From Planctomycetota bacterium (lineage in GTDB: Bacteria > Planctomycetota > UBA11346), in contig JAKLKR010000004.1 in the NCBI GenBank assembly GCA_023150565.1, positions 1 to 64,000 on the forward strand: a stretch of 64,000 nt of DNA. The letters are read 5' to 3'. Shown here piece after piece: positions 22,791 through 64,000 of this stretch. The position numbers and the translations under genes were made by a program. Position 1 is the first letter of the stretch, and each line of letters opens with the position of its first letter. The notes under the pieces are model-generated. The model was not told the origin of the DNA. It worked only from the letters and a program-made list of their open reading frames with translations, and ran no database searches.

Positions 22791-22845
22791 GTGATGATCT
22801 CTTCATCAATTACGTCGAACCTTCATGCCAAACGATGACCGCATC

Positions 22846-37587: not shown

Positions 37588-37603
37588 CGCGGGCACGTCG
37601 ACA

Positions 37604-40492: not shown

Positions 40493-40680
40493 GCTGATAG
40501 TCCGAAGACGCTCCGGCTGCGCCGGAGCGGGATTTGTCGCAGAGGACCGGTCCGGCAGGCAGCGGAGGAGGTCCCGTTCCCGGCCGTGGGAGTGCCCGAG
40601 GAGGCGGGGCATCCGTGCCCCGCCTCCTCGGGCGCCGTCCCGGTCATCGGCGGCCGCTCGGGGTGCGTCCCCGCAGGGCC

Positions 40681-50800: not shown

Positions 50801-51042
50801 AACCCAGACAGGCTGTCGCGGTCGGCCAGGAGCACCCGCCCGCACTGCTCACCCAGGCTGCAGCTGGAGCCCAGGGCCTCGGCCCAGACCGCTGGAGCAT
50901 GGACACCCTCCAGCGGCGAGAAGTGCGTTCGTACCGCCAGGGCTGGGGCCTCCCACCCGGCCAGCACGGCGCCGAGACGCCGCGGCTGGAGGCCGACGGC
51001 CGGCATCAGCTCCAGCGGGGGTGGGGTGACAACAGGCGGCAT
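47893..51042 (-). CDS. dnaE2: Error-prone DNA polymerase DnaE2 (ImuC). The start is uncertain.
   Basis: A PHP plus Pol III alpha core (DLDVDFPWDERDAVLAAAM, FAGYSFCKAHSASYAMVSFQCAYLLAHHPAYFLA) and a C-terminal OB region. The ORF-track ORF extends to 51699 with an implausible Gly/Arg/Pro-rich N-terminus, so I chose an internal Met near 51042. Confidence 0.8.
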   Translation of the reverse strand: MPPVVTPPPLELMPAVGLQPRRLGAVLAGWEAPALAVRTHFSPLEGVHAPAVWAEALGSSCSLGEQCGRVLLADRDSLSGLPATIAAWGRERIAVGATVRWAVPGVATNDDHDVVLLAPTASAYAHLCRLLSWQAEEPTAWMAWQDGAGRDRHDLGEIVALVRHDGPVTRLRDAGAEVWWRCGLEPDPPPVGLPAAALPVLTHLGTADRVGDAVRHAVAHREGRVAASGVALTDLVVMRVAFRHHGFLLDAGRDLLARCAYVPGGSWHMPPSHYADADGELRQRAEAGMRRRYTRETPEIRQRLDHELAVISAKGFSGYLLTVADLAAGRRTCGRGSGASSLVVYCLGITNVDPIRYHLLFERFLNPARIDPPDLDVDFPWDERDAVLAAAMASYGRDHVAMVANHNHLRRWSALRVVARAYGRSDGETTAVRAQVKAHERYGMPLRLAEPWPGILAQAKHLIGIPHHAGLHCGGVVITREPLRDLVPIHPAAKHIALEADPDDEAPPPRVPVPAISWEKDGAEIMGLVKIDFLGNRSLAVVRDTITDLAEDGVTIDEHRWRPADDPLTRRLVASGNTLGCFYIESPAMRQLQAKAGSGDFDRLVIHSSIIRPAANRWINTYLDRLAHHRATGQHLPEWYPHPALRGLLSESYGILSYQEDVMLAAVEIAGFDDRQANALRKALGLWDTQARLTRFADEFRRGAENRGATPEAIATVWGMIASFAGYSFCKAHSASYAMVSFQCAYLLAHHPAYFLARVIANEGGFYQPSAYLEEARRSGIRILGLCVIASGWATVRAGADALRIGLHLLPGLSAESGRRLVAERERRPFAGIADLRRRVGLSASQLDILARVGALDALCPECHRDQVIWVATSIGLNPLVRGEEDDDGVVQRIFPVEPPRDPTPPVIPPRSARVLAWEIFSILGFLPAGHPIHFCDRRGDHLRCRDLTAGMAKSRVRLVAWPITRKQVEAKPKPKPGSSAGPPEPMAFVTLEDETGRVETVWFPQAYRTYGPLLDRDRPLRLQGVVEVSYGAVTLTVQSGEVVEPTAQ

Positions 51043-51503
51043 GGAGTCGTTTATGGGTCTATAATAACCCATTCCAGCGACATTCTTGCACTCGCCGGAT
51101 GTTAACGGATTACATACTGTCACATCATAGCTTGCGTCGATATTATCACTCCCGTCGACTCCCAATCCAGGTCGACTCAGGCCAAGGACTTCTGCTGCCA
51201 GTCGGCGTCGTTGACCATCCGACGCGCCGGCCGGGAGACGGAGAAAAGCCTGCGACCAGCATCCGATAGGGTACGGTATCGTGGTCTCCGCCTGGCGTGG
51301 GCTAACGCCCATCTGCAGCCAAGGGGTGCGTGATCTCGACCCACATGCACTCCGCCTGAGGGGCATCGGCAACCCGCACTCGCAGGATAAAGTGCAGCCG
51401 GACCAGATCGCCGATCCGCTGCGAAGCACGTTCGGAGAGGGCAGGGATGAAGAAGGTGTCCGGGTTCTCCCGGACACAGCGTTCGACATCCTCAAGATCC
51501 CGG

Positions 51504-53501
51504 TCAGCCATGTTCCACTTCGTGTTGGCAGGCAGCGACCTGCATCGCCTGGCGCTGACAGGTCAGGATCCAGGTCGACAGCAGGAGGACCTCGGCACGT
51601 CCGCGGCCCTGGGCTTCGACCAGCCGGGCCAGGGCGGCACTCAGGCTGCCTAATCCCAGACCGCGCGCCTCGGATGCCGCCGCCGTCACCAGGGGCCATT
51701 GGCGGAAGGAGCGCATGCCGGCATTGCCGAGGGCAAGGCAGGCATCCAGGCAGCGATCCAGGACCGGCGAGGAGCCGAGCGGCATGGTCTCGTCGTCGGT
51801 ATCCTCCTCCAGGCCATCGTCTTCCTGGGCCGGAACGGAGAGGCTCGGCGGCGTTGGCTTGTCGGCCTGCGTCAGCGATCTGATGCCCGCGGGATCCACG
51901 AGGCTGATCGGATGCAGGCTGATCCCATCCGCCGTGATCTGGAGGCGGGCGAGCAGGCTGCGGTCCGCAGCATCAGGCAGCGATTCCACCTGGCTGATGG
52001 CCGCCTGCGTGTGGGCTGACTGCGGGATGATGATGGGGATCTGCCGGCCTCCCACATCCACCAGGCCACGGACCAGCAACTGCCGATGGGTGTCGAACTG
52101 GGCCGGCAGCCACTTGGCCGGGCGCACCAGCACAATGTCGCTGTTGACCTTCCGGTCAGCGAACCCGATCGGACACAGATCCGGGAGGCGGGTCCAGAGA
52201 TCTCGCCAATCCGCGGTTGGCGTCGGGAGATCAGCGATAGTCGTGGCATGCTGGGCATGCCAGCGGCTGGCAGGTCGTCCAGACAGCCGCTGGGCACGAT
52301 TGCGCCAAGCACCCATGAGGACGCCGCTGGCCGTGCTGATATGAGTCGGGCTGGTCGCACCCGGCCAGGGGCCCGGAGCTGCAGCCCGACTCATCGGATC
52401 GAACTCCGCGGTGGTGACCGGCCTGACTTCGCTCCAGGTGCACCAGCTGCGGTTGTGCTGGTCCCAGAAGTAGACGGAGAGGCCCTGGTATCCGGACAAC
52501 GTCTTCCAGGCCTCCAGGCCGGCACCGACGAGCTCAAGATTGTGCACCCGTTCGTACTGGGAGCGATGGACCCCGACCAGTTCCGGCGTCGGCTTCGTCA
52601 GGGCCTTGGACAACGCCCAGCAGGCGGCGGTCCGTTCCAGCAGCCGGGCATCCGAGGCCTGGGGGTCCCGCGACAGCCAGCCATCGATCTCCTGGGCCAA
52701 ACCCCGCACCAGGCGCTCCAGGCGGGGCAGATCGACGCCATGGGCAGCCATGGCCATGGTCCGGAACCGCTCGGCGTGGGTCGGCCCCGTCCGGGAGAAG
52801 CCCAGGCTGACCAGATCCTCGCAGAGGGCCGCCACCTCCTCGCAGACCTCGGGTCTGGTGCGGACGGCCCCGGACGATGCCTCCGGTACGGCATCCTCCC
52901 GCTCAATGGTCCGGCGTCCCTGCTGGACCTGCCAGGCCAGGACGACCGCCACCCGATGCACGCAGACACCCGGTTCATGGCAGGAGCAGAGCATGCCTCC
53001 CAGGCCACCACCCGGCATCCACCGGCATTCGGCGTTCCATTCCGCGATCCTGCCGATGAAGGGCGCCCCATCCTCGCAGGCGACGGATAGGCCGATCGCG
53101 AGTTCCCGACGGGCGCGCTTCCACATGGCCTTGCCGGCCCAGCGCTCCAATTCCTCATCCGGCAGTGCCGTGATCTCCGCGCCGCTTGGCTTAGGCGCTG
53201 AGGCGGCAACCTGGCCGGTTGCCGGCGCTGACCCGAGGTGCAGCAGGCAGGCCAGGATGTGGCGGCAGATGCCGCCGGCTGGGCAGGTACAGCGCGATTC
53301 GGCCGGCCGTTCGGCAAGCACCACCGTCTGCTGGTCCCAGCGCAAAGACACGCCAGCGGCTGTCTCGTCCAGGACCTCCGGCTTGGCCGATTCGAGGTCC
53401 TTGCGGGCGCGGCGAACCAGACCGCGGTTGGCGAGGGCGATCAGCTCATCGTCACCGAGCATCCGCGCGACGGCGGCGATGCGGTCGGCGAGGGCGCTCA
53501 T
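51504..53501 (-). CDS. SWIM zinc-finger protein (YehQ-like).
   Basis: CTCPAGGICRHILACLL matches the SWIM CxC...CxH motif. Last gene of the five-gene operon. Confidence 0.65.
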   Translation of the reverse strand: MSALADRIAAVARMLGDDELIALANRGLVRRARKDLESAKPEVLDETAAGVSLRWDQQTVVLAERPAESRCTCPAGGICRHILACLLHLGSAPATGQVAASAPKPSGAEITALPDEELERWAGKAMWKRARRELAIGLSVACEDGAPFIGRIAEWNAECRWMPGGGLGGMLCSCHEPGVCVHRVAVVLAWQVQQGRRTIEREDAVPEASSGAVRTRPEVCEEVAALCEDLVSLGFSRTGPTHAERFRTMAMAAHGVDLPRLERLVRGLAQEIDGWLSRDPQASDARLLERTAACWALSKALTKPTPELVGVHRSQYERVHNLELVGAGLEAWKTLSGYQGLSVYFWDQHNRSWCTWSEVRPVTTAEFDPMSRAAAPGPWPGATSPTHISTASGVLMGAWRNRAQRLSGRPASRWHAQHATTIADLPTPTADWRDLWTRLPDLCPIGFADRKVNSDIVLVRPAKWLPAQFDTHRQLLVRGLVDVGGRQIPIIIPQSAHTQAAISQVESLPDAADRSLLARLQITADGISLHPISLVDPAGIRSLTQADKPTPPSLSVPAQEDDGLEEDTDDETMPLGSSPVLDRCLDACLALGNAGMRSFRQWPLVTAAASEARGLGLGSLSAALARLVEAQGRGRAEVLLLSTWILTCQRQAMQVAACQHEVEHG

Positions 53502-54646
53502 CCGATCACCTTGGAGACCCAGGTGGCCAAGTGGTTCGGGGTCATGGCCCCGACCTCGGCGCCGGCGGCGACGCAGGCCTCTGCCGATTGGCGGTCGTAG
53601 GTCGGCTGGGCGTTCCTATCGAGGGCGGCCAGACCAAGGACCTTGACCCCATCCGACTTCAGTTTGCGGATCTGCGCAACCAGCGGCGTGATGCTGCCGT
53701 TCTCCATGAAATCCGTGACGAGCACCAGGATGGTCTTGGAGGGATGCTCGACGAGCGAGGCGCAGTAGCCGACGGCGCCGGCGATGTCGGTGCCTCCGCC
53801 CAACTGCACGGACATCAGGACCTCGGCCGGATCGTGGACGTGGTCGGAGAGGTCAACGACGTTGGTGTCGAAGGCGACGAGCCGGACCCGTACCGTGGGC
53901 AGGCCGGCGAAGATGGCGGCGATGACGGCACTGTGGATGACCGAGTCGGCCATCGAGCCGCTGCAGTCGACGGCGATGATCACATGCCAGGCCACATGCT
54001 TGCGGGATCGGTTGCGGAACACCAGATCGCGGGCCAGGAGCCGGCGATGGCGGGGGTCCCAGTGCTCCAGGTTCTCCCGCACCGTGGCCTTGAGATCCAG
54101 ATTGCGGCTGCAGCGGCAGCGCGAGCGCTTGTTGCGGTCGAGGCGACCCCACAGGGCCGGCTTCATCTCCTTCTCCAGCCGACGACGCAAGTCCTCCACG
54201 ACCTTGCGGACGATGGTCCGCGCCAGATCGAGCGTCTCGCCGGCCATCAGCCCTTTGAACGTCAGGACGGCCTTCAGGAGATCGTAGCTGGGTTCGAGGC
54301 GGCGCAGCGTCTCCGGATCGGTGACCAGCTCAGTCATGCCGTAGCGATCCAGGGCATGCCGCGTGATCACCTCGCAGGTGTCCGCTGGAAATAGATCGCG
54401 GACCTCGCGCAGCCAGGTGGGGATCTCCAGCACCGAGTCGCCGCTGCCGGCACCAGGACCCGACGCCCGACCGCCCTGCCCCACGCGCAATCCACGCCGC
54501 TGGTATTCACGGTTGTAAAGGAAATCGAGGACCCGGTCGACCCGTGTTCCGTGCGCACCGAGGGTCTGCCCCATCCGGTCCTCGGCAAACTGGCCGAGGA
54601 TGAGCCGCCACCGTTCAGCTGCCTGGCGATCCATCGGGTCAGGCAT
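53498..54646 (-). CDS. VWA-domain protein (YehP-like).
   Basis: MIDAS motif VIIAVDCSGSM and downstream VWA core. Overlaps neighbouring genes by 4-8 nt. Confidence 0.7.
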   Translation of the reverse strand: MPDPMDRQAAERWRLILGQFAEDRMGQTLGAHGTRVDRVLDFLYNREYQRRGLRVGQGGRASGPGAGSGDSVLEIPTWLREVRDLFPADTCEVITRHALDRYGMTELVTDPETLRRLEPSYDLLKAVLTFKGLMAGETLDLARTIVRKVVEDLRRRLEKEMKPALWGRLDRNKRSRCRCSRNLDLKATVRENLEHWDPRHRRLLARDLVFRNRSRKHVAWHVIIAVDCSGSMADSVIHSAVIAAIFAGLPTVRVRLVAFDTNVVDLSDHVHDPAEVLMSVQLGGGTDIAGAVGYCASLVEHPSKTILVLVTDFMENGSITPLVAQIRKLKSDGVKVLGLAALDRNAQPTYDRQSAEACVAAGAEVGAMTPNHLATWVSKVIG

Positions 54647-57023
54647 GGGAGCCTTCCAGGATTTGGATCAGGCCATCCCGCTCCAAGGCGTGGCGGACAA
54701 GCAGGTCGGCCGCGCGACCGATCTGCACATCGGCCAAGGCGTGACGACTCCCCAGGTGGCGGTCGATGGCCGGCAGACCAGCCCGGGCAGCGGCCATTTT
54801 TGCGACCTGATCGACCGCACGGGGTGGAAGCTCGGCAAAGGCCAGGCGGAGATGCGGCAGCGCCGCGACGAAGTGCTGCTCGTCCAGGAGCCGGAGGGTC
54901 TGATGGACGGCATCGATGATGGCAGGCTCACTCCAGCAGGCCGAGCGGGCAGCGCGCAGGACGCCCCGCAGAAAGCGACCCCCGACCGACGGGTCAGTCG
55001 TCGCCGCGCCGAGGTGGCCCGCCAGCTGGGCACCCAGGGCGGCGCCATCGGCCAAGCCATCATCGTACAGCAAGCCCCAGGCGGTTCCGGCCACCGCTGG
55101 ATTGGCGCCCTGCCGGATGTCCACCAGCCGTTCACGGCGTAGCGTCGGGCAGGTCGGTTCAGTCAACTCGTCGGTGAGGATCGACCACGAGAGCAGATCC
55201 TGGCAGGCGTCGTCCTCCGCTTCCGGGGGAGCCTTGGCGAGATCGGTGATGAGGTAGGCCGCCCGGGTCCAGGCTGCCAGCACACCCGCCTCGATCTCGG
55301 GCATGCCGTGGGCTTCCAGGGGCTCCCGGCCGGTGACCAGCAGGTGGAGGCTGTTGGCCGCTCCGATGACGCTGGAGACATCACCGTCGGTGGCGATCAG
55401 CTTCTCCACCCGGGGCAGCAGGACGCGCGCCTGGGCATGCAGGCCGCAGCGGCAGGCCTCGACGACCAGCCGTGCAGCTCGGTCTGCGCGCCGCTCGCCG
55501 TTCTCGGCAGCCTCCGCCAGTTCCAGGAGGCGGGCCGTGGCGGCTTCGACGATCGTGGCGCCGTACCGGGACTGCTCGACCAGCCGGGCTTCGACGCCGG
55601 GGTGCCACTGGTAGCGCCATATCTCGCGGACCCGATGCAGATCACCGCCCGTGGTGAAGTCTGGACCGGCCTCCTTGCGGGCGAACGGGACTTCCAGGAG
55701 CAGGATGCGGTGCAGGAAACGGCTCGACTCGCGATGGGCGGCTGAACGGTAGAGATCGAGATCCAGGCCCTGCTCCTCGACGCCCACCTTGAATCGCAGG
55801 GCCGCCGTCTGCCGTTCGAAGTCGAGCACCAGGGGAGGCCGACCGACTGCCTGGGGGACGATGCCGACCCGGTCGCCGGCCAGGATCTTGCGCACCTGGG
55901 CGAGGACCGCGACGCCTTCGATGTCACGGGCACCCTTGATGAAGCAACTGGTCACCGCATCCAGGAGGTCATGGCGGGTGGGATGGTCGTGCCCCCGGAA
56001 GGCCGCCAGCCGGTGGAGCTGGGCCACGGCCGCCGCGGCATCGGCTACTGATGGAGACCCGGTGTGGCCGCGCAGGTCCCGCGCGATGGAGACCATGAGG
56101 TCGTCGATCAGCTGGTTGTCCCACCGCCACTGCCAGAAGGCGGGCGAAGGCATGCCGCTGGCGTAGCCATTCAGGCGATCCAGCTGCAGGAAATCGTACC
56201 GCATCATCCAGGTCCCGGCGTCCTCCTCGCGGGCGACGGTCACCGGCTTGGGCATGGCGGGAACGGTCTGCGGCAACGCCACCGTGTGGAATCCACCGGT
56301 GATCACCACCACCTGACCGCTGACCTCGGCCAGCACCCGCTCGATCTCCGCCCGCATGCCGGCTTCACGGACCAGGTTCCCCTCGGCGATGACCTCCTCC
56401 GGCGTATGCGCCAGGCGGCAGGCGGTGCACCAGGCCAGGACGCCATGGAAGAAGTCCTCGGTGGAGCGTTGTCGGCCGTCGGTCTCGAACCAGCCATCCC
56501 ACAGGTCGTCGGGATCGCGCGCCCCAGCCCGTCGGCACGCTTGCACAAGCCACGATCCCTGCCGGAGCGACGTCTCCCGCTGCAGGCTGCGGGGACGATC
56601 AGCATCCGCCGCCGTCTGTTTGCTCAGGCGTTCGGTATGGACCATCTCCGGCCAGGTGAGATCGATGAACCGGACCTGGGCGCCAACGGCGTGCCCGGCC
56701 TGGACCGCCACCAGTTCAGGCGAGTACGCGCAGAGCGGATAATAGGCGGCGGCCCGACGCGGTGGCCCGTCGCCGCTCCGATCAGTGTAGGTGGTGAAGA
56801 CCGCGACAGGAGGCGACATGGCTGGATCGACCAGATGCCGCAGTAACGGAGTCGCGTCACGGGGGCCCTCGATGAGAACCGCGGATGGACGCAGCCGACG
56901 GATGACGGCGTCGGCATGGTGGGCGCAGGCCGGGCTGTGGTGCCTGATGGGCAGCCACACGATGCGCTGCGTCAGGTCCGGTCGCGGTGCCGCCCGCAGG
57001 ATGTCTGCGGCATCCAGGGTCAC
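54639..57023 (-). CDS. Large DUF5682-like protein (YehM-like).
   Basis: A 794-aa conserved hypothetical in the canonical position between the MoxR ATPase and the VWA gene. Confidence 0.5.
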   Translation of the reverse strand: MTLDAADILRAAPRPDLTQRIVWLPIRHHSPACAHHADAVIRRLRPSAVLIEGPRDATPLLRHLVDPAMSPPVAVFTTYTDRSGDGPPRRAAAYYPLCAYSPELVAVQAGHAVGAQVRFIDLTWPEMVHTERLSKQTAADADRPRSLQRETSLRQGSWLVQACRRAGARDPDDLWDGWFETDGRQRSTEDFFHGVLAWCTACRLAHTPEEVIAEGNLVREAGMRAEIERVLAEVSGQVVVITGGFHTVALPQTVPAMPKPVTVAREEDAGTWMMRYDFLQLDRLNGYASGMPSPAFWQWRWDNQLIDDLMVSIARDLRGHTGSPSVADAAAAVAQLHRLAAFRGHDHPTRHDLLDAVTSCFIKGARDIEGVAVLAQVRKILAGDRVGIVPQAVGRPPLVLDFERQTAALRFKVGVEEQGLDLDLYRSAAHRESSRFLHRILLLEVPFARKEAGPDFTTGGDLHRVREIWRYQWHPGVEARLVEQSRYGATIVEAATARLLELAEAAENGERRADRAARLVVEACRCGLHAQARVLLPRVEKLIATDGDVSSVIGAANSLHLLVTGREPLEAHGMPEIEAGVLAAWTRAAYLITDLAKAPPEAEDDACQDLLSWSILTDELTEPTCPTLRRERLVDIRQGANPAVAGTAWGLLYDDGLADGAALGAQLAGHLGAATTDPSVGGRFLRGVLRAARSACWSEPAIIDAVHQTLRLLDEQHFVAALPHLRLAFAELPPRAVDQVAKMAAARAGLPAIDRHLGSRHALADVQIGRAADLLVRHALERDGLIQILEGSHA

Positions 57024-58189
57024 GCAGGCTTGCCCTGGAACCGTCCCAGTGCCGCCGTCGCCGACTTGTGGAATTCAGCCCAGGTGCCGGCGCACTCCTT
57101 GGCGCGACGCGCCGTGACGGCCCCGAGATACTGCCGGAGCTTCTGGATGTCGTCGCTGCTGTCCTTGAGGACGGCTCCCGGGAGGTGGCGGCCGACATCG
57201 TCGGCGGTGAGCTTCTTGTCGCCGTAGTACCAGGCATCAAGGCTGGCGGCGAAGCCCACCGAGACGGCTTCGGCGGTCGACATCACGGCGGCCGGCTTCT
57301 CGACCGAGATGCCTTCCGGCGTGCTCCCGGTACGCAGATCCTGGAAGGCCGTCACCAGCAGTTCGACGATGTCGCGGTTGACCTTGGCCGGGGCGGCAGC
57401 ACCAGCGAGCAGGCGCTCGACCTCGTTGTGCACCAGTTCGACCTCATCGGCGAGGTTGGCGATCGGATGCACCGTCTCGAAGTTGAAGCGGCGCTTGAGC
57501 GCGCTCGACATCTCATGGACGCCGCGATCGCGCAGGTTGGCCGTGGCGATGACGTTGAAGCCGGGCTTGGCGAACAGCACCCGCTGATCGCCAGGCAACT
57601 CGGGGATCGTCATCATCTTTTCGGACAGGATGCTCACCAGGGTGTCCTGCACCTCCGGGGCGCAGCGGGTGACCTCCTCGAAGCGGACCAGAGACCCGGC
57701 GGTCATGGCGGTGTAGATCGGTGACGGGACGAGGGCGCGTGGCGTCGGCCCTTCGGCCAGCAGCAGGGCGTAGTTCCACGAGTAGCGGATCTGGTCCTCA
57801 GTGGTGGCGGCCGTGCCCTGGACCACGTTGAGCGACGTTCCGGAGATGGCGGCGCCGAGGAGTTCGGACAGCAGGCTCTTGGCCGTACCCGGCTCGCCCA
57901 CGAGCAGCAGCGCCCGGTTGCCGGCCAGCCCGATCACCGACCGTTCGACCAGCCGGTCATCGCCGTGGTATTTCCGGGAGATGGCGACCTTCCCCTTCTT
58001 GCCGTCCTTGGTGAAGGCCAGCTTCTCGCCATCGCTGCCCGTGATGAATGTGACGACCTGCCGCGGGCTGAGGTGCCAGCCGGCCGGGCGCGCGTCATCG
58101 CCCATGGCCGTGAGGGCGGCCAGTTCCTCGCCATACAGCACTTCCGCCGGTTGGCGCAGGATGGGAGCGGCGGTCGGGGCGGTGGTCAT
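57020..58189 (-). CDS. MoxR-like AAA+ ATPase (AAA_5, YehL-like).
   Basis: Walker A LLLVGEPGTAKS, Walker B/sensor regions. AAGGAT SD before ATG 58189. The ORF-track 5' extension to 58912 is a Gly/Arg-rich artefact. Confidence 0.8.
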   Translation of the reverse strand: MTTAPTAAPILRQPAEVLYGEELAALTAMGDDARPAGWHLSPRQVVTFITGSDGEKLAFTKDGKKGKVAISRKYHGDDRLVERSVIGLAGNRALLLVGEPGTAKSLLSELLGAAISGTSLNVVQGTAATTEDQIRYSWNYALLLAEGPTPRALVPSPIYTAMTAGSLVRFEEVTRCAPEVQDTLVSILSEKMMTIPELPGDQRVLFAKPGFNVIATANLRDRGVHEMSSALKRRFNFETVHPIANLADEVELVHNEVERLLAGAAAPAKVNRDIVELLVTAFQDLRTGSTPEGISVEKPAAVMSTAEAVSVGFAASLDAWYYGDKKLTADDVGRHLPGAVLKDSSDDIQKLRQYLGAVTARRAKECAGTWAEFHKSATAALGRFQGKPA

Positions 58190-58203
58190 CGGGATATCCT
58201 TGG

Positions 58204-61200
58204 TCACGTGGAAGCCTTCTTCTCCCAGTCGGGATCGAATCCCGTGCCCTGGGCTGCGATCTCGTGGACATCGTTCCAGCATTCGCTCAGCAGCGCCGCC
58301 GAGACCTCGGCGAGGGGACAGGCGGCAGCCTCTCCACCCGGGACGGTACGCTCGCAGGAAAGCCCGATCAGCGCTGTGGTGCGGTTCTCCTCCGGCAGGG
58401 AGTTGCCGGTGAACTCCAGCACCGCGGTCAGATGCGCAGCGGGGAAATGCTTGCGATAGACGTGGAACCAGCCGCCGTCCTCGGGCTGGCCGCGGGTCCA
58501 GCCCAGCTTGGTGGCGCGGGCGCGCAGGCTGAACGCCGCTACCAGATACCCGGTCCGGTCGGCGATCACCTGCTCTTCGGCCAGTTCCGCCGGCAGCGCC
58601 AGGGGAGGACGCTCGACCTGCGGGAAGAGCGGTTCGACCTCGTAGTCCGCGCAGTGGCTCCGCCAGCGGGCTGCGGCCTCGATGCCGATCAGGATGGGAT
58701 GTGCGACGGCGACCCAGGCCCCATCCGGCAGGACCACCGCTGCATCCTCCGCGTCCGTCAGGGTGCCATCCTCCAAGGCCCGGAAGGTCCCCGGCTTGGC
58801 CTCCGGCGCCGCCCACCAGGCCCAGACCACCCGCCGGCACAGCCGGCCGACGATGGGATGCGCCAGGAGGAAGGCGCGCCAGTCGGTGGCTTTCCAGCGC
58901 CGCCCGGTGCACATGGCCTCGTACAGGCGGTCGGCCTGCTGTTTCACGATAGTCTTGACCTGCTTCTTCGCCTCGCTGAACGCCTTCTTCGCGGTGGCGG
59001 CGGCCTCGGCGTCATCCCCTGCCCGCGGCGCCGGCAGGGTGGCGAGTTGGGCGCCGGCGGCATCCTGGACCGCCAGATCGAGATCGTCCTGGAGCAGGAC
59101 CGTGAAACTGCGCGCGCCGAAGGACAGGGTGAGCCTCCCCTCCTCGTCAAAGCCCGCCGCCGGGATGGTGCGGTCGGCCAGCTCATCGACGCTCCATCCG
59201 CGCTCGGCGGCAATCGTCTGTACGCAGACCTCGGCCTCCTTGCGGATGCCCGCGGTGCGGAACCGGGTGGCGGTGGCGAGCAGCACCTGGATGGCGGTCG
59301 AGTGGTCGGTCGCGGCCAGCATCTGGACCAGGGCCTTGCACTGCCCCGCACGCATGCCGTACCAGCGCTTGAGGTACTGGGCGGCCTGGGGGGCCAGGCC
59401 GGCCCCACCCATGGCTGCCGCCACTGCCAAGATGCCTTTGGCGCCGATCTGCGTGCTTACCGGGGTCTGCCGGTACTGGTCGACCATCCGATCATACCAC
59501 TCCTGGGCGGTCAGCACCGGAACGCCACCCAGGGCGGTCGTCTGCTGGGCCTGGATCGACGCCATCATCTGGGCGTTGGACATGATCGCCGCACTCTGGG
59601 CGCGCACATGGTCGGCGACCTGTTCCGGCGTCGGCAGGCGGGTGTCCTCGGCGATCCAGGCCTGGAGGAGGTGTTCGCCCAGACGATGGGCGGCGGCTGG
59701 TTCCAGCACAGCGGCATAGCGGCGCAGCAAGGGGGTTGGCGCCGGGTCCTTGAGCTTCCAGGACTGCACCAGCCACCAGGTGAGCACTTCCCGCTCCAGC
59801 AAGCCGCTGCCGTCGGACCAGGCGGGCAAGGGCAGGCCAGGGAGGGGCAGCCAGGCTAGGTCGGCCGGAACACCTTTGGCCAACCCCTTGGCCGCGGCTT
59901 TGGCCAGGCCGGGCCGGTCGAGGAAACGGTCAATCGGCACCCCGAGCCGTTCGAGCGCCGTCATCATGGCCGCCTTGGCCGGCTCCGAACGCTCCCCCTG
60001 CACCGCCGCCTCCAAGGCGGGGATGGAGGCTGGGTCCTTGAGCGATGCCAACCAATCGGCGGCGCGCAGCCGCACATCCTGTTTGCTGTCCTCCAGACCA
60101 GCGATCACCCGTTGCAGCATCCCGGGAATGCGACCGACAGCACGCTGAGCCGGACCACGCCGGGCACCATTGCCGCCGAAGGCCAGGTCCCACAGCAATG
60201 GCTGGAGGGACGCCGGGATCTCCGGGAAGCGCTCGACCAGGGCGAGGGCGTTGGCGGCACGCCGGTTCTCGAAGATGTCGTGATCCAGGGCCGGGGCTTC
60301 GCCCTGGCCCAGTGCTCCGGCGATCACCTCCGGATGTTCAGCATACCACTCCCAGAGGTCGTCGAGAGGCCAACGGAGTCCGAAATAGGAGCCCATGACC
60401 TCCCAGGCGATGTCGGCTGCGGGGATCCCTACCCGTTCGGCAGCGGCCAGGACGCGCCGGGTGCCGGTGGTGGTCCGGGTCGCCTTGCGGTAGCAGGGCA
60501 GGATGTTCTGCACCCACAGGCAGATCCCCCGGCTGTCATCCTGGTGACCACGCGGGGTGAACAGGACGGCCAGTCGGACGACCAGTTCCGGCGAAGCCCC
60601 CGGATCGGCCATCAGGGTCTGGATGACCGGCCGCAGGGCATTCCAGATCTGGTGAGTGCCTTGAGCCCGGTTCCAGGACTGGATGTCCTCGGCGGTGATG
60701 CCGGGGGCGGTCAGCAGCGTCATGAGCCGCTCCACATCGTCGGTGGTGAACGGCGTCGGCAGGGGAGGGATCGGCATCTGGAAGCGGGGATTGGATGCCT
60801 GATGAACCCGGATTCGACGCTCCTCCATCTCCCACCAGGACATCAAATGCTTCGACCAGGCCTCGGCCATCTGGGCGATGGCGGCCTGGCCGGCCGGCCC
60901 GAGCGGGCGGATGCCGGGATCCTCGATGGGAGGGAGCGCCTGGGCCTGCCCCTGAGCCCCCGCCACGGCCTGGGCCTGGAGGTCAGAGATGGTCTTGCGC
61001 ACGGATGGGACAGTTTCAGCCGCCAACCGTTCGGCCAGGAAGGGGGCAGGGTCCTCCGACGACCGCCGGGCGATGAAGCTGATGGCCAGGGACCGTTCGG
61101 TGGTGGATCCGGTCAACGCGTACGCATGAAGCAGGGGAAGGATTCCAGCCAGGGAGGTGCCCACCCAGGTTTCCGCCGCTTCGCGCAACCGTTTGGCATC

Positions 61201-62007
61201 ACCGACCAGGAACGCAGCGAGGGTGGAGGCGAAGGGCGTCGGATCGCACCCCTGCGTTTTGAGGAAATCTAGGCGCATCACCTGCGCCTTGCTGTCGCCC
61301 TGCGTCAGCTGGCTGCGCACCAGGTCCGGATGCCGAGCGACCGCCGCGGGCAAGCCGGGGATGACCCCGAGGAGACGGCCGGGGCCGAAGCGGTAGGAGG
61401 CGGTTTTCCCCTGGAGCGGGATGGACAGGGCTGCCAGCAGGACTGCTGTCCGGGAGGCCCCATCAAGGGTCAGCATCTCTTCCCAGCGGGCATGATCGAT
61501 GGAGGTCCCATCCATCGAGCTCCAGGAGTTCGGCCGTACCGAGGACGCCTCCCACAGCAGGACTTCCACCCACGGCGGCAGGCCAAGCGATTGCAGGAGC
61601 AGGGTCCGGGAGCCTGCGCGCGATGCCGCTTCGCACACCTGCCCCAGCCGACGAGTCTGGGCGGGGGATGGATGCGTCGCCGCCAGCCAATCAGCCCACG
61701 GATGGCTCATGAATCGGCTTGCTCCCGAGGCCACCAGCTTGAGCGCGGCGCCTCCCCCGGCGTTGGCCGCGAGATCGGCGATGACATCCGCATCCAGGCC
61801 GGCCACCACATAGCGGGTCGACCGGCGACCCAGATCCGGGGCGATCCGGTCCAGCGGTTCGAAGGCCGCAGCCAGTCGTTCCACTGCCGGCTGATCGAGT
61901 CCCCCGGGGGCAGCAGAGGATGATCCTGCCTGCACCAAGTCAGAAATCCACGATCCCATAGGGTCCCCCCGGTCACTCCACCCTAGGGAGGCGGTCCTGT
62001 CCGCCAA
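58204..62007 (-). CDS. DUF4132 (MolR/YehI-like) large protein.
   Basis: A 1267-aa protein with HEAT-like segments and a C-terminal DUF4132-like region. First gene of the operon. The start may be at Met 61959. Confidence 0.5.
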   Translation of the reverse strand: MADRTASLGWSDRGDPMGSWISDLVQAGSSSAAPGGLDQPAVERLAAAFEPLDRIAPDLGRRSTRYVVAGLDADVIADLAANAGGGAALKLVASGASRFMSHPWADWLAATHPSPAQTRRLGQVCEAASRAGSRTLLLQSLGLPPWVEVLLWEASSVRPNSWSSMDGTSIDHARWEEMLTLDGASRTAVLLAALSIPLQGKTASYRFGPGRLLGVIPGLPAAVARHPDLVRSQLTQGDSKAQVMRLDFLKTQGCDPTPFASTLAAFLVGDAKRLREAAETWVGTSLAGILPLLHAYALTGSTTERSLAISFIARRSSEDPAPFLAERLAAETVPSVRKTISDLQAQAVAGAQGQAQALPPIEDPGIRPLGPAGQAAIAQMAEAWSKHLMSWWEMEERRIRVHQASNPRFQMPIPPLPTPFTTDDVERLMTLLTAPGITAEDIQSWNRAQGTHQIWNALRPVIQTLMADPGASPELVVRLAVLFTPRGHQDDSRGICLWVQNILPCYRKATRTTTGTRRVLAAAERVGIPAADIAWEVMGSYFGLRWPLDDLWEWYAEHPEVIAGALGQGEAPALDHDIFENRRAANALALVERFPEIPASLQPLLWDLAFGGNGARRGPAQRAVGRIPGMLQRVIAGLEDSKQDVRLRAADWLASLKDPASIPALEAAVQGERSEPAKAAMMTALERLGVPIDRFLDRPGLAKAAAKGLAKGVPADLAWLPLPGLPLPAWSDGSGLLEREVLTWWLVQSWKLKDPAPTPLLRRYAAVLEPAAAHRLGEHLLQAWIAEDTRLPTPEQVADHVRAQSAAIMSNAQMMASIQAQQTTALGGVPVLTAQEWYDRMVDQYRQTPVSTQIGAKGILAVAAAMGGAGLAPQAAQYLKRWYGMRAGQCKALVQMLAATDHSTAIQVLLATATRFRTAGIRKEAEVCVQTIAAERGWSVDELADRTIPAAGFDEEGRLTLSFGARSFTVLLQDDLDLAVQDAAGAQLATLPAPRAGDDAEAAATAKKAFSEAKKQVKTIVKQQADRLYEAMCTGRRWKATDWRAFLLAHPIVGRLCRRVVWAWWAAPEAKPGTFRALEDGTLTDAEDAAVVLPDGAWVAVAHPILIGIEAAARWRSHCADYEVEPLFPQVERPPLALPAELAEEQVIADRTGYLVAAFSLRARATKLGWTRGQPEDGGWFHVYRKHFPAAHLTAVLEFTGNSLPEENRTTALIGLSCERTVPGGEAAACPLAEVSAALLSECWNDVHEIAAQGTGFDPDWEKKAST

Positions 62008-62314
62008 TCCCGTTGCCGCTGTCCGTGCAGGTGGATCCGCGGGCTGCCATAAGCCGGGCCGCTATCCTGGTGGTTGCGGCGGATGCGTTCGGCCACCGGG
62101 CGGTCCCGACCACGGCTATCCGGCGCTGCCGTTTGAGGCTAGCTGGCCAGGCGTCCGGGTCCACGGTGGGTCCAGATAGACGCTTCGGATACAGCACACC
62201 CACGCAACTAATTGGCGCGCAAGGCATAAGAACACCGTTGCACGAATGACGCCGCACGATACACACATATATCGACATTATTCCACAACGTATAACACAA
62301 AAGCCATACAAATA

Positions 62315-63454
62315 ATGATAGAAGACACACATTCTCAGCGGCCAGCACGCCTCTGGACCACCGTCTGCGCCATTGTCGAGGGGGCCCTTCAGCGCGATCA
62401 GAGTCGGGTCCTAGCTCAGGCCGAACATCTTGCTGGCATGCTCCGCACGACTGGTGACCCCGGTACCGCCAAGCGCCTAGATCAGATCCTGAAGCGCTGG
62501 GGCGCATCGACACTGGCTCCATCGGGCATTGGGATTGCACAGCCATCTCTGCCCGTCGACACCGAGTCGCGCTTGGCCTTGGCGGACGAATATCCCCCGA
62601 TGACCGACGCTGAGGTCATCCTCAGCCCCGAACACGACGCGGCGATCGCGAATTTCATCACCTATTACCAGGCGAGCGATCGCCTCGAGGCTGCCGGCGT
62701 CGGCCAGACGCCGGCCATCCTCCTGCACGGCCCACCGGGCTGCGGCAAGACCGTGCTCGGTCACACTATCGCTGGACGACTGGGACTGCCCCTGCTCGTC
62801 GCCCGCATCGACAGCATGGTATCCTCCTACCTCGGCGCGACAGCGAAGAACATGCGCCTCCTCTTCGAGCATGCCCAATCGAAACCATGCGTGCTCTTTC
62901 TCGATGAATTCGACGCCATCGCGAAGATTCGCGACGACAACCACGAACTCGGCGAACTGAAGCGGGTCGTGGTCAGCCTGTTGCAGAACATCGACAGCCT
63001 CGGGCGCCAGACCGTACTTGTTGCGGCCACCAACCACGAGCACCTGCTCGACCGGGCCATCTGGCGCCGCTTCACGCTGCACCTGCACTTGGAGTTGCCT
63101 GATGAACGGCTTCGTCGGCATCTTCTCGAGCGATTTGTCCGCGGCTACGCCGCCAGCGACGAAATCGACCTTTATGCCCGATTGACCGAAGGCTTGAGCG
63201 GCGCGGTCATCCGCACCTGCGCCGAGGACGGGGTGCGCGCGGCGATCGTTGCCAACGCGACCGCCATCCCCTGGGCGGACATGATCCGTCGGATCTTGGC
63301 CATCCGGCAGATCCCCCTGGGCGATGGCCGCAACGTCGATGACCTACGTCGCATTCGCGAACTCGATCCAAGATTCTTCACGCAGAAGCGGCTTGCCGAA
63401 CTTCATGATTTCAGCGTCAGTTACGTCCAGAAGATCCTGACCCGCCGGAGATAA
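62315..63454 (+). CDS. AAA+ ATPase of the Vps4/Msp1/katanin-like (AxxRRF) clade, with an N-terminal substrate-binding-like domain.
   Basis: Walker A ILLHGPPGCGKT, Walker B VLFLDEFDAI, sensor-1 ATNHEH, and DRAIWRRF. AT-rich promoter-like DNA at 62200..62330. I chose Met MIEDTHS at 62315. Confidence 0.75.
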   Translation: MIEDTHSQRPARLWTTVCAIVEGALQRDQSRVLAQAEHLAGMLRTTGDPGTAKRLDQILKRWGASTLAPSGIGIAQPSLPVDTESRLALADEYPPMTDAEVILSPEHDAAIANFITYYQASDRLEAAGVGQTPAILLHGPPGCGKTVLGHTIAGRLGLPLLVARIDSMVSSYLGATAKNMRLLFEHAQSKPCVLFLDEFDAIAKIRDDNHELGELKRVVVSLLQNIDSLGRQTVLVAATNHEHLLDRAIWRRFTLHLHLELPDERLRRHLLERFVRGYAASDEIDLYARLTEGLSGAVIRTCAEDGVRAAIVANATAIPWADMIRRILAIRQIPLGDGRNVDDLRRIRELDPRFFTQKRLAELHDFSVSYVQKILTRRR

Positions 63455-63456
63455 TC

Positions 63457-64000
63457 ATGCCACAGCACGACACCCCCAGCGAACCGCACCTACCCGTGAC
63501 GCGCATCCGGCCATTGGATACCGACATCATCCGGGTCGATCGAGACATCGTGCGCGAACCGCCACCGCCATTGCGATCCGATCTCGACGCCTGGCGCAAC
63601 ACCCTGGTCGCTCGCTTCGACGACATGGTCGGTGCCGTCCGTCAACGCGATTCCAGCTTTCCCGGCGTTCCGTCTGTGGCCCGCATCCGTCTGACCAAGA
63701 TGGCCAAGAGCTACCGGCCGGTCACGGGCAACCCGCATGCATTCTTCTCTCGGCGTCGTTGCCCGATGATCGGAGCCGAGTCCGGCCACCACATGCTCGT
63801 GATGGCCCAGGCGCAGGGGCTTGACGAAGTCCGTGCCCGCGTGGCTGCTACAGGGGATGCCTGGTCCGACTTCTACGTCAGCAACATCGAGGATGCCCAT
63901 CTCAGTGATGCCATGCATCTCTGCCCACGCTCCAGTCTCGATGCCGTTGTCGCCGCATGGGAGTCGCCACACATCCCACTGCAGATCCGTCTGTTCGATT
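63457..64000 (+). CDS. Hypothetical protein, translationally coupled to the AAA+ ATPase. Partial: the 3' end runs off the window.
   Basis: Open frame from ATG 63457, 2 nt after the upstream stop, to the window end with no stop (MPQHDTPSEPHLPVTRIRPLDTDIIRVDRDIVREPPPP...). Not in the ORF track because it is truncated. Confidence 0.5.
   Translation, partial: MPQHDTPSEPHLPVTRIRPLDTDIIRVDRDIVREPPPPLRSDLDAWRNTLVARFDDMVGAVRQRDSSFPGVPSVARIRLTKMAKSYRPVTGNPHAFFSRRRCPMIGAESGHHMLVMAQAQGLDEVRARVAATGDAWSDFYVSNIEDAHLSDAMHLCPRSSLDAVVAAWESPHIPLQIRLFD

What the first reader, a model, noticed from the sequence alone, without database searches (positions are those of the whole stretch)
51504..62007. A five-gene yehI/yehLMPQ-like operon (DUF4132, MoxR AAA_5, DUF5682-like, VWA, SWIM) of unknown function, sitting directly upstream of dnaE2 and near SRAP
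The genes overlap or abut (4-8-nt overlaps) in the order DUF4132, MoxR, DUF5682-like, VWA, SWIM. This mirrors the enigmatic E. coli yeh cluster, whose role is unresolved. MoxR-VWA pairs are chaperone-like or insertion-machine modules, and SWIM domains bind nucleic acid. Here the operon runs straight into the error-prone polymerase gene dnaE2, without the usual imuA/imuB partners in the window, and the abasic-site crosslinking peptidase SRAP is two genes further on. That hints at a link to DNA-damage tolerance rather than the proposed molybdate connection.
Basis: partly seen in the sequence, partly recalled or inferred. Interest (0 to 1): 0.55.

Follow-up and report, generated by a model that had tools for sequence, protein, structure and literature searches.

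The report
Yeh-type MoxR-VWA operon beside dnaE2
The five-gene cassette is real and is a planctomycete copy of the widespread, still uncharacterised E. coli yehI/yehLMPQ cluster, but its position next to an error-prone DNA polymerase gene is a one-off of this genome rather than a recurrent link.

Summary
Five co-oriented minus-strand genes (DUF4132, MoxR AAA_5, DUF5682, VWA_CoxE, SWIM) are collinear homologues of E. coli YehI-YehL-YehM-YehP-YehQ. They lie in a Planctomycetota MAG.

The proposed tie to dnaE2 and SRAP is not supported by conservation:
- None of 80 Yeh cassettes from many phyla has a DnaE-like or SRAP gene within 10 kb.
- Four close relatives of the cassette (SWIM 57-85% identical; five contigs, three of them copies of one place) have other downstream neighbours.
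- None of six relatives of the polymerase has a Yeh gene nearby.
- The polymerase has its own conserved palindromic operator/promoter 10 nt before its ATG. The motif is absent upstream of the yeh operon.

A looser DNA link survives. Published SOS-gene lists include E. coli molR, which heads the yeh cluster, and a Deinococcus DUF4132 gene is radiation-induced. The SWIM protein also models with tandem OB folds like HIN, RPA and SSB.

New here: the DUF5682 N-terminal domain has a TraB/ChaN-like fold, and DUF4132 is a swappable, fast-diverging module. In a MAG where MoxR and DUF5682 are 95-97% identical, DUF4132 is only 38% identical.

Most likely this is an autonomous MoxR-VWA machine with a variable DUF4132 partner. 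It is a new member of a known, unsolved kind. Interest is moderate.

The parts
61960..62245 (.). Divergent intergenic region between the DUF4132 gene and ietA; presumed promoter region of the yeh-like operon.
   Evidence: No sigma-70-like consensus was found. There is no copy of the dnaE2-type palindrome. It has no nucleotide similarity to relatives.
58204..61959 (-). DUF4132 protein (YehI-like, 1251 aa): helical/HEAT N-terminal part and C-terminal DUF4132 domain. It is the variable module of the system.
   Evidence: Pfam DUF4132 6.5e-40 and weak HEAT_2. 30% identical to the YehI C-terminal part. Only 38-67% identical to orthologues whose MoxR is 83-95% identical. No blastn match to L013 despite 94.6% nt identity next door.
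57020..58189 (-). MoxR-family AAA+ ATPase (YehL subfamily, 389 aa).
   Evidence: Pfam AAA_5 1.5e-33. 46% identical to YehL. Walker A GEPGTAKS and an unusual Walker B FEE, both shared with E. coli YehL.
54639..57023 (-). DUF5682 protein (YehM-like, 794 aa): N-terminal alpha/beta domain of TraB/ChaN-like fold, a middle region, and a C-terminal HEAT-like solenoid.
53498..54646 (-). VWA protein of CoxE type (YehP-like, 382 aa) with a MIDAS motif.
   Evidence: Pfam VWA_CoxE 3.8e-51. 46% identical to YehP. DCSGS motif in the translation.
51504..53501 (-). SWIM protein (YehQ-like, 665 aa): two SWIM zinc fingers, a helical bundle, a beta-rich region modelled as tandem OB folds, and a C-terminal helical bundle.
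51302..51511 (-). 69-aa ORF whose ATG overlaps the SWIM stop codon by 8 nt. It contains a terminator-like hairpin (51456..51477). Probably not part of the conserved system.
   Evidence: Called as a gene on Logan contig L001. No Pfam hit. No homologue in any of the other loci held at that point (L002-L096). Hairpin.
51053..51072 (.). 20-bp palindrome ATGGGT-N8-ACCCAT with a -10-like TATTAT in the spacer, 10 nt upstream of the dnaE2-like ATG. It marks a separate regulatory unit (neighbour, not part of the cassette).
   Evidence: The full ATGGGT-N8-ACCCAT palindrome recurs at the same position in front of the DnaE-like genes of L002, L004 and L005; the GGTY-N6-GACC core alone recurs in front of dnaE-like in L097 and of imuB in L098. 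The full palindrome is otherwise essentially absent from 1.84 Mb.
47893..51042 (-). DnaE2/ImuC-like polymerase (1049 aa) of a planctomycete clade with a degenerate PHP domain (neighbour, not part of the cassette).
   Evidence: Pfam DNA_pol3_alpha, finger, HHH_6 and OB domains, no PHP. NCBIfam error-prone polymerase 427 bits against a 939 cut-off. 93 closest database relatives also lack a PHP hit. A 52% relative sits in an imuB-dnaE2 operon beside SRAP.
46548..47189 (-). SRAP (YedK/HMCES-type) protein, 213 aa, N-terminus MCGR (neighbour).
   Evidence: Pfam SRAP 3.7e-43. Translation.
62246..64000 (+). IetA (62246..63454) and the start of IetS (63457..window end): a known defence pair transcribed divergently from the yeh-like operon (neighbour).
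   Evidence: PADLOC IetA 1.6e-121. IetS 8e-10 on the 181-aa fragment.

Best explanation
The locus is an autonomous Yeh-type cassette that happens to lie next to a separately regulated dnaE2-like/SRAP unit in a rearrangement-prone stretch of a planctomycete genome.

Shown:
- The five genes are orthologous in content and order to E. coli yehI-yehL-yehM-yehP-yehQ.
- The four-gene core (MoxR, DUF5682, VWA, SWIM) travels together across at least nine phyla, with no other recurrent neighbour.
- DUF4132 is the variable partner. It is often present in 2-3 divergent copies, it evolves much faster than the core, and it is exchanged between near-identical genomes.

Inferred mechanism:
- The MoxR hexamer (YehL type) supplies ATP-driven remodelling.
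- The CoxE-type VWA protein couples it to a partner through its MIDAS site, as in other MoxR-VWA pairs.
- DUF5682 is a HEAT-like scaffold carrying a TraB/ChaN-like domain. Its invariant His/Glu/His positions suggest a metal-dependent hydrolase or ligand-binding site.
- The SWIM protein, with two zinc fingers and HIN/RPA-like tandem OB folds, binds nucleic acid.
- The interchangeable DUF4132 proteins provide target recognition or are the clients or effectors that get switched.

I read it as a nucleic-acid-linked surveillance (conflict or stress) machine. Its trigger could be foreign or damaged DNA. It is not an accessory of translesion synthesis.
For: Orthology and collinearity.

Autonomy:
- At least 587 species hits in the genome survey.
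- Of the 80 best loci, 67 have L-M-P-Q in order and 53 have A-L-M-P-Q as here.
- Clustering of 1589 flanking ORFs gives no family shared by more than 9 loci, and those are generic.
- In a Pfam census of 143 immediately flanking ORFs, no family occurs in more than 3, and most are housekeeping.

No link to dnaE2:
- DnaE-like 0/80 and SRAP 0/80.
- Close relatives L007, L010, L011 and L093 differ downstream.
- Polymerase relatives L002, L004, L005, L097, L098 and the P0028 contig have no yeh genes.
- The polymerase has its own conserved operator.
- A hairpin follows the SWIM stop codon.

Variable DUF4132:
- Identity of window proteins to L007/L093/L011/L010: MoxR 92/95/89/83, VWA 93/92/81/79, DUF5682 89/91/75/72, SWIM 79/85/68/57, DUF4132 59/67/38/55 (%).
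- L013: MoxR 95% and DUF5682 97% identical, but DUF4132 38% with no blastn match.
- The same trend is seen in E. coli. Records below 95% nt identity: 17% for yehLMPQ, 39% for yehI, 43% for molR.

Folds: TraB/ChaN-like plus HEAT; SWIM plus OB.

Mobile or conflict flavour:
- IetAS next door.
- IS66, rve, IS1595 and an RHS toxin in the window.
- A complete cassette beside a type I R-M system and IS elements on a 77-kb MOBP plasmid.
- 38 plasmid records carry DUF5682.

DNA link: E. coli LexA box at yehF (PMC6590174) and the Deinococcus DdrO regulon (PMC8533742).
Against: - No experiment bears on the function. The mechanism is inference from domains and folds.
- None of the five proteins hits any PADLOC model.
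- Flanking genes show only scattered defence hits: PsyrT, DpdF, dGTPase, Vsr and PDC-S14 once each, with no control set.
- In E. coli the cluster is nearly core, at one chromosomal site in 5210 of 5426 genomes. That is unlike typical accessory defence systems and fits a housekeeping or stress role.
- No obvious toxic effector (nuclease, TIR, pore) is present.
- The OB-fold match has weak Foldseek E-values (3e-3 or worse), and OB folds do not always bind nucleic acid.
- Read-through transcription from SWIM into dnaE2 cannot be excluded from sequence.
Confidence: 0.6

Rival explanations
1. One reading: the cassette works with the adjacent DnaE2-like polymerase and SRAP in DNA-damage tolerance. 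For example, it could act as a loader or remodeller that replaces the missing ImuA/ImuB, with the genes co-expressed by read-through.
For: - Same strand and a 461-nt gap.
- No IMS (imuB-type) hit among the window ORFs scanned against Pfam.
- SRAP lies two genes further on.
- The SWIM/OB protein plausibly binds DNA.
- E. coli molR is an SOS gene (PMC6590174).
Against: - 0/80 surveyed cassettes, none of the four close relatives of the cassette and none of six polymerase relatives show the adjacency.
- The polymerase has its own conserved operator, which is absent at the yeh promoter.
- A hairpin follows the SWIM stop codon.
- A 52% relative of the polymerase has a normal imuB partner. The clade therefore uses the usual partner, which may simply lie elsewhere in this genome.
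Confidence: 0.04
2. A dedicated chaperone or maturation system of the CoxD/CoxE, NorQ/NorD or RavA/ViaA kind. MoxR plus VWA would insert a metal or cofactor into, or assemble, a specific client. The client could be the DUF4132 proteins or a metalloenzyme (the old 'molybdate' idea).
For: - The VWA protein is of CoxE type (3.8e-51).
- MoxR-VWA pairs characterised so far act in complex maturation (PMC3893208; PMC7159879 section 8).
- The cluster is nearly core in E. coli.
- The ChaN/TraB-like fold includes haem- and metal-binding members.
Against: - No metalloenzyme or cofactor-biosynthesis gene recurs next to the cassette.
- Swapping and multiplication of DUF4132 between near-identical genomes is unusual for a housekeeping client.
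- SWIM fingers and OB folds point to nucleic acid.
- The Deinococcus study saw no change in molybdate-metabolism genes (PMC8533742).
Confidence: 0.18
3. A DNA-damage-response module in its own right, independent of dnaE2. It would be induced by LexA- or DdrO-type regulators and would remodel protein-DNA complexes at lesions or breaks.
For: - molR appears in E. coli LexA regulon lists, and a box lies at yehF (PMC6590174).
- DRA0165-DRA0166 (DUF4132) is strongly derepressed when DdrO is depleted (PMC8533742).
- Some E. coli MolR proteins carry a WGR domain ('WGR and DUF4132 domain-containing protein').
- A small ATP-dependent DNA ligase sits next to the cassette in L010, L011, L025 and L028.
- The SWIM protein models with OB folds.
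Against: - Canonical LexA boxes are not enriched upstream of the 80 cassettes (0.04 per kb upstream against 0.05 per kb overall).
- The candidate planctomycete operator of dnaE2 is absent at this operon.
- No WGR hit here or in the survey.
- The ligase adjacency is only 2/80 in the survey.
Confidence: 0.18

Closest known systems
E. coli yehI-(yehK)-yehL-yehM-yehP-yehQ cluster with molR (yehF/yehH); YehL subfamily of MoxR ATPases
   Same: - Same five protein families in the same order.
- Same 8-nt and 4-nt gene overlaps.
- MoxR and VWA 46% identical.
- Shared unusual Walker B FEE.
- DUF4132 paralogues accompany the core.
   Different: - No WGR-containing paralogue and no yehK.
- No sib/ibs toxin locus (that locus is from my own knowledge of K-12, not tested here).
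- Only one DUF4132 gene in the window, whereas close planctomycete relatives have a second, divergent one where this genome has IetAS.
- No LexA-type box was detected upstream.
CoxD-CoxE, NorQ-NorD, CbbQ-CbbO and RavA-ViaA MoxR-VWA maturation pairs
   Same: An AAA_5/MoxR ATPase paired with a MIDAS-containing VWA protein. The VWA protein is of CoxE type by Pfam.
   Different: No client enzyme genes are adjacent. Three extra conserved partners (DUF5682, SWIM/OB, DUF4132) are not found in those systems.
vWA-MoxR-VMAP and iSTAND ternary conflict systems (Kaur et al. 2020, PMC7159879)
   Same: A MoxR-VWA core joined to further components, with a rapidly diversifying partner and HEAT-type scaffolds. 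The systems are proposed to set a threshold for a response to invaders.
   Different: - The bpMoxR model scores below its cut-off (19.4 against 27 bits).
- The VWA protein has no C-terminal effector domain.
- No VMAP or iSTAND component is present.
- That paper does not mention SWIM or YehL.
imuA-imuB-dnaE2 SOS mutagenesis cassette with associated SRAP
   Same: The neighbouring polymerase is DnaE2/ImuC-like with a degenerate PHP domain. SRAP is nearby, and a palindromic operator precedes the polymerase.
   Different: No imuB or imuA was found in the window ORFs scanned. The operator is not any published LexA motif. The Yeh genes are not part of this cassette in any other genome examined.

Membership tests
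Yeh-type cluster (E. coli yehI/yehLMPQ; MoxR YehL subfamily system) | MoxR AAA+ ATPase orthologous to YehL | tested here: met
   AAA_5 1.5e-33. 46% identity over the full length to YehL, E 2e-105. Shared Walker A and FEE Walker B.
Yeh-type cluster (E. coli yehI/yehLMPQ; MoxR YehL subfamily system) | DUF5682 protein (YehM) | tested here: met
   PF18934 4.3e-103, covering 695 of 727 model positions. 29% identical to YehM over 756 aa.
Yeh-type cluster (E. coli yehI/yehLMPQ; MoxR YehL subfamily system) | CoxE-type VWA protein with MIDAS motif (YehP) | tested here: met
   PF05762 3.8e-51. 46% identical to YehP. DCSGS motif.
Yeh-type cluster (E. coli yehI/yehLMPQ; MoxR YehL subfamily system) | SWIM zinc-finger protein (YehQ) | tested here: met
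   PF04434 1.6e-5. 25% identical to YehQ, E 3e-13. Two conserved CxC..CxH motifs.
Yeh-type cluster (E. coli yehI/yehLMPQ; MoxR YehL subfamily system) | DUF4132 protein (YehI/MolR) adjacent to the core | tested here: met
   PF13569 6.5e-40. 30% identical to the YehI C-terminal 240 aa.
Yeh-type cluster (E. coli yehI/yehLMPQ; MoxR YehL subfamily system) | Collinear order A-L-M-P-Q with coupled junctions | tested here: met
   Order and 4/8/4-nt overlaps. The same order occurs in E. coli and in 53 of 80 surveyed loci.
imuA-imuB-dnaE2 mutagenesis cassette (for the neighbouring genes) | DnaE2/ImuC polymerase | tested here: inconclusive
   The best NCBIfam model is 'error-prone DNA polymerase', but at 427 bits against a 939 cut-off and only over model positions 288-1028. 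The catalytic DxD and D are present. The PHP domain is degenerate, as in DnaE2 relatives. A 52% relative lies in an imuB-dnaE2 operon.
imuA-imuB-dnaE2 mutagenesis cassette (for the neighbouring genes) | imuB (IMS family) and imuA immediately upstream of dnaE2 | tested here: not met
   The SWIM gene and a 69-aa ORF lie upstream. No IMS hit in any window ORF scanned.
imuA-imuB-dnaE2 mutagenesis cassette (for the neighbouring genes) | LexA operator in the promoter | tested here: inconclusive
   No published LexA motif is present. A conserved new palindrome sits where an operator would. Binding by LexA was not tested.
Known anti-phage defence systems (PADLOC-DB v2) | Any of the five proteins matches a defence-system model | tested here: not met
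   0 families for all five proteins at E up to 0.01. The divergent neighbours match IetA and IetS.
vWA-MoxR-VMAP / iSTAND ternary conflict systems | bpMoxR/VMAP-type MoxR, a VWA protein with a C-terminal effector, and a VMAP or iSTAND third component | tested here: not met
   bpMoxR 19.4 bits, below the 27-bit cut-off. The VWA protein ends with the VWA domain (aa 158-377 of 382). No such third component is among the genes.
CoxD/CoxE-type metallocentre maturation systems | Adjacent client metalloenzyme genes | tested here: not met
   No recurrent enzyme family among the flanks of 80 cassettes.
TraB/PrgY/ChaN/erythromycin-esterase (Tiki) superfamily, for the DUF5682 N-terminal domain | Shared alpha/beta fold with N-terminal His, Glu and C-terminal GxxH motifs | tested here: inconclusive

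The most novel reading that the evidence does not exclude
Yeh-type cassettes are found in at least 587 species and are nearly core in E. coli. They could be a still-unrecognised class of MoxR-VWA-driven, nucleic-acid-sensing immune or genome-surveillance machines. In this reading the SWIM/OB protein detects foreign or damaged DNA, and the swappable, multi-copy DUF4132 proteins are the diversifying sensors or effectors. The TraB/Tiki-like domain of DUF5682 would act as the processing hydrolase.
Probability: 0.25. Interest if true: 0.75.

Novelty: new member of a known kind. Interest (0 to 1): 0.35.

Why it matters
The yehLMPQ cluster is one of the larger conserved operons of E. coli still without a function. 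The YehL subfamily is one of the seven named MoxR subfamilies (PMC3893208), and I found no experimental characterisation of it in the searchable literature. This window does not solve that, and its apparent clue (dnaE2 next door) is misleading.

The comparison does yield testable leads that apply to E. coli as well:
- a conserved four-protein engine with a hypervariable DUF4132 partner;
- a predicted nucleic-acid-binding SWIM/OB subunit;
- a TraB-like putative hydrolase site with invariant His/Glu/His.

Separately, the palindrome in front of the planctomycete dnaE2 and imuB genes is a candidate SOS-type operator. It comes from a phylum within the PVC super-phylum, where a 2016 study said the SOS response had not been documented (PMC4951493).

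Tried and rejected
- PADLOC on the five proteins: no hits.
- NCBIfam: only remote GvpN, MadB and cobaltochelatase similarities far below cut-off.
- PDB sequence and profile searches for DUF5682, DUF4132 and SWIM: nothing.
- Pfam on sub-regions (DUF4132 N-terminal 600 aa, SWIM beta-region and C-terminus, DUF5682 halves): nothing new.
- Published LexA motifs (CTGT-N8-ACAG, GAAC-N4-GTTC, GTTC-N7-GTTC and others) in the SWIM-dnaE2 spacer and in relatives: none. They are also not enriched upstream of the 80 cassettes.
- Sixth-gene idea: the 69-aa ORF coupled to the SWIM stop codon is conserved in no other locus and has no Pfam hit, so I rejected it as a system component.
- Conserved neighbour or effector search: clustering of 1589 flank ORFs and a Pfam/PADLOC census of 143 nearest ORFs found no recurrent partner.
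- Phage carriage: one doubtful contig only.
- Literature searches for DUF4132, DUF5682, yehL/M/P/Q, MoxR plus SWIM, and MoxR plus anti-phage: no functional study of the cassette.
- A structure for DUF4132 could not be predicted.
- A collection-wide scan for the palindrome was not run. With 12-14 fixed bases, chance matches would have swamped it.

Full report
**What is there.** The window is high-GC (about 0.68-0.70 over the finding). It comes from a Planctomycetota metagenome-assembled genome: the polymerase and SWIM proteins are 100% identical to NCBI 'MAG: Planctomycetes bacterium' entries on a 71,835-bp contig.

Five co-oriented minus-strand genes occupy 51504..61959. Pfam identifies them as follows:
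- DUF4132: 6.5e-40, with weak HEAT repeats.
- AAA_5 MoxR: 1.5e-33.
- DUF5682: 4.3e-103.
- VWA_CoxE: 3.8e-51.
- SWIM: 1.6e-5.

An independent gene call on a Logan contig gives the same MoxR, DUF5682, VWA and SWIM coordinates. The junctions are 14-nt gap / 4-nt overlap / 8-nt overlap / 4-nt overlap.

The DUF4132 start is best placed at the ATG at 61959. That gives 1251 aa, which aligns end to end with a 1252-aa orthologue.

**Relation to E. coli.** The K-12 region reads yehF, yehH (pseudogene), yehI, yehK, yehL, yehM, yehP, yehQ. It has the same 8-nt and 4-nt overlaps between the last three genes.

BLASTP pairs every window protein with its positional counterpart: YehL 46%, YehP 46%, YehM 29%, YehI 30% over the C-terminal part, YehQ 25%. 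Walker A (GEPGTAKS) and an unusual Walker B (FEE) are shared with YehL. The observation and the 'yeh-like' label are therefore correct.

**Is the link to dnaE2 and SRAP recurrent?** I tested it from both sides.

From the cassette side:
They span Planctomycetota, Verrucomicrobiota, Chloroflexota, Acidobacteriota, Cyanobacteria, Actinomycetota, Pseudomonadota, Bacillota and others.
- In the 80 best loci, each with 10-kb flanks, tblastn finds MoxR-DUF5682-VWA-SWIM in order in 67. The full DUF4132-first order occurs in 53. Two or more DUF4132 genes occur in 24.
- There are no DnaE-like hits, no SRAP hits and two small DNA ligases.
- The closest relatives of the cassette (SWIM 57-85%, DUF5682 72-91% identical) all keep the five genes plus a second, divergently transcribed DUF4132 gene. 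Downstream they carry a pentapeptide protein, NAGPA plus chemotaxis genes, or a small ATP-dependent ligase, never a polymerase.

From the polymerase side:
- Relatives at 76%, 71%, 61%, 57%, 54% and 52% identity sit in six different contexts without Yeh genes.
- The 52% relative lies in a canonical imuB(IMS)-dnaE2 operon with a divergent SRAP gene. This shows that the clade is a DnaE2/ImuC clade. It also shows that the dnaE2-SRAP association recurs on its own.

**The polymerase is a separate regulatory unit.** Ten nucleotides upstream of its ATG (51042, MPPVV...) lies a perfect 20-bp palindrome, ATGGGT-TATTATAG-ACCCAT (51072..51053 on the coding strand). Its spacer contains a -10-like hexamer.
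- The same element occupies the same position in L002 (perfect), L005 (one change) and L004 (imperfect). Its core, GGTY-N6-GACC, recurs before the polymerase in L097 and before imuB in L098.
- In 1.84 Mb of held sequence, matches with at most one mismatch occur almost only at these genes. The one other perfect copy is in the window, at the start of an IS1595 transposase. Two further one-mismatch matches (L004 9395, L089 22068) lie elsewhere and look like chance.
- The element is absent from the 286-bp region upstream of the yeh-like operon and from the planctomycete Yeh loci.
- A terminator-like hairpin lies 27 nt after the SWIM stop codon.
- None of the published LexA motifs occurs in the spacer.

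**Context.** The cassette sits in a rearrangement-prone region.
- IetA (PADLOC 1.6e-121) and IetS (8e-10) are transcribed divergently from it.
- The window also holds IS66, two rve and one IS1595 transposase genes and an RHS toxin.
- In a MAG whose MoxR and DUF5682 are 95% and 97% identical (94.6% at nucleotide level), similarity stops at the MoxR start. The neighbouring DUF4132 is only 38% identical and has no blastn match. The gene upstream of it is a second DUF4132 rather than IetA.

**What the system looks like.** Across relatives the divergence is strongly graded. Identities of window proteins to L007/L093/L011/L010:

| Protein | % identity |
|---|---|
| MoxR | 92/95/89/83 |
| VWA | 93/92/81/79 |
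| DUF5682 | 89/91/75/72 |
| SWIM | 79/85/68/57 |
| DUF4132 | 59/67/38/55 |

Paralogous DUF4132 copies share only 25-29% identity, in their C-terminal third.

E. coli shows the same ranking. The share of records below 95% nucleotide identity to K-12 is 17% for yehLMPQ, 39% for yehI and 43% for molR. The cluster itself is nearly core (5210 of 5426 genomes).

No other gene family recurs in the flanks. Clustering of 1589 ORFs and a census of 143 nearest ORFs found none. Defence-model hits among those neighbours are scattered singletons. Complete cassettes occur on some plasmids, for example next to a type I R-M system on a 77-kb MOBP plasmid. They are essentially absent from phages. A Deinococcus plasmid carries a variant ordered SWIM-DUF5691-AAA-DUF5682-VWA, without DUF4132.

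**Structure-based inference.** No solved relative exists by sequence.

The AlphaFold2 model of DUF5682 (pLDDT 89.3) has three parts:
- a middle region that resembles AAA+ lid or winged-helix modules;
- a C-terminal HEAT-like solenoid resembling condensin Ycg1 and CAP-G.

Residues R27, H28, S30, C33, E52, D56 and H246 are invariant in 75 homologues. From memory, these positions match the His/Glu/GxxH signature of the TraB/Tiki superfamily. There is no sequence-level support.

**Interpretation.** The shown facts are:
- orthology to the Yeh cluster;
- autonomy of the cassette;
- a conserved four-protein core with a swappable DUF4132 module;
- independence from dnaE2.

The mechanism is inferred by analogy with MoxR-VWA pairs (PMC3893208, PMC7159879) and from the predicted folds. 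ATP-driven remodelling by MoxR would be coupled through the VWA MIDAS site, on a DUF5682 scaffold with a possible hydrolase site. The SWIM/OB subunit would bind nucleic acid, and the DUF4132 proteins would act as variable recognition or client modules.

I favour a surveillance or conflict-type role at about 0.3-0.35. A maturation-chaperone role and a DNA-damage-response role each stand at about 0.18. Coupling to dnaE2 stands at about 0.04. The 0.6 given for the best explanation is for that statement as a whole, in which the autonomy of the cassette is near-certain and the conflict-type mechanism is the weaker part.

The DNA-damage hints that remain come from elsewhere:
- molR is in the E. coli SOS gene lists (PMC6590174), with a box 8 nt upstream of yehF.
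- DdrO controls a Deinococcus DUF4132 operon (PMC8533742).
- Ligase genes are occasional neighbours.

Canonical LexA boxes are not enriched upstream of the surveyed cassettes.

**Verdict.** This is a correct observation of a known but unsolved operon type, so a new member of a known kind. The specific mechanistic hint drawn from its neighbours does not survive comparison. Interest is moderate. It rests on the open function of the Yeh system and on the leads listed above, not on the dnaE2 adjacency.

Noticed in passing
window 51053..51072; L002 9972-9991; L005 8914-8933; L004 about 9970-9990; L097 about 5965-5985; L098 about 4755-4775: A conserved palindrome (ATGGGT-N8-ACCCAT, core GGTY-N6-GACC, AT-rich spacer with a -10-like hexamer) lies 9-32 nt upstream of planctomycete dnaE2-like genes. 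In L098 it lies upstream of imuB in an SRAP <> imuB-dnaE2 arrangement. It is shaped like an E. coli-type LexA box but with different arms. It is a candidate SOS-type operator in a phylum where none has been described (PMC4951493).
   Followed up: partly
window 13517..13536: The only other perfect copy of that palindrome (ATGGGTATATATAGACCCAT) ends 1 nt before the in-frame ATG (13515) of an IS1595-family transposase (12538..13536, minus strand). This suggests the transposase shares the regulator, or that the transcript is leaderless.
   Followed up: no
window 62246..64000: An IetA/IetS defence pair (PADLOC 1.6e-121 and 8e-10) is transcribed divergently from the yeh-like operon. It occupies the place where close relatives carry a second DUF4132 gene.
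   Followed up: partly
L013 1-3445 compared with window 58204..61959: In a MAG with 94.6% nucleotide identity across MoxR and DUF5682, the adjacent DUF4132 gene is only 38% identical at protein level and has no blastn match. The variable module has been cleanly replaced between near-identical genomes.
   Followed up: yes
window 51302..51511 and 51456..51477: A 69-aa ORF has an ATG that overlaps the SWIM stop codon by 8 nt. It is not conserved in any other locus and has no Pfam hit. It contains a GC-rich hairpin followed by a T-rich tract that reads as a terminator for the yeh-like operon.
   Followed up: partly
L001 (= window 51045..59293): An independent Logan assembly of the same sequence breaks inside the DUF4132 gene at one end and 3 nt before the dnaE2 ATG at the other. 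These are the two places where relatives differ, which suggests strain-level heterogeneity at both borders.
   Followed up: no
window 47893..51042 and relatives P0001-P0093: The polymerase belongs to a planctomycete clade of about 93 database proteins with no detectable Pfam PHP domain. In five of six contexts it has no adjacent imuB. The catalytic aspartates are intact.
   Followed up: partly
L010 18601-19662; L011 15591-16625; L025 19598-20590; L028 15656-15955: A small ATP-dependent DNA ligase (DNA_ligase_A_M plus OB_2) lies just downstream of the Yeh cassette in two close relatives and in two of 80 surveyed loci. This is rare but is the only DNA-metabolism neighbour seen more than once.
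   Followed up: partly
L096 (Deinococcus taeanensis plasmid p_TS293_3) 7762-15808: A variant cassette ordered SWIM, DUF5691, AAA ATPase, small ORF, DUF5682, VWA, with no DUF4132. DUF5691 may stand in for DUF4132 as an alternative variable partner.
   Followed up: no
L012 (E. coli K-12) 4448-4467: A LexA-type box, AACTGGATAAAATTACAGGG, lies 8 nt upstream of yehF, the WGR-domain fragment of molR at the head of the yeh cluster. This matches molR's listing among SOS genes (PMC6590174).
   Followed up: partly
window 12000..23000: A low-GC island (0.53-0.63 against about 0.69) carries the IS1595 transposase, a 1825-aa RHS-repeat protein (16069..21546) and several ORFs with no Pfam hit. It is probably a horizontally acquired toxin island.
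   Followed up: no
window 35824..43016: Three transposase genes lie in 7 kb (IS66 family at 35824..37662; rve-type at 38883..40397 and 41340..43016). They separate type II secretion genes (26833..34137) from the SRAP/dnaE2/yeh stretch.
   Followed up: no
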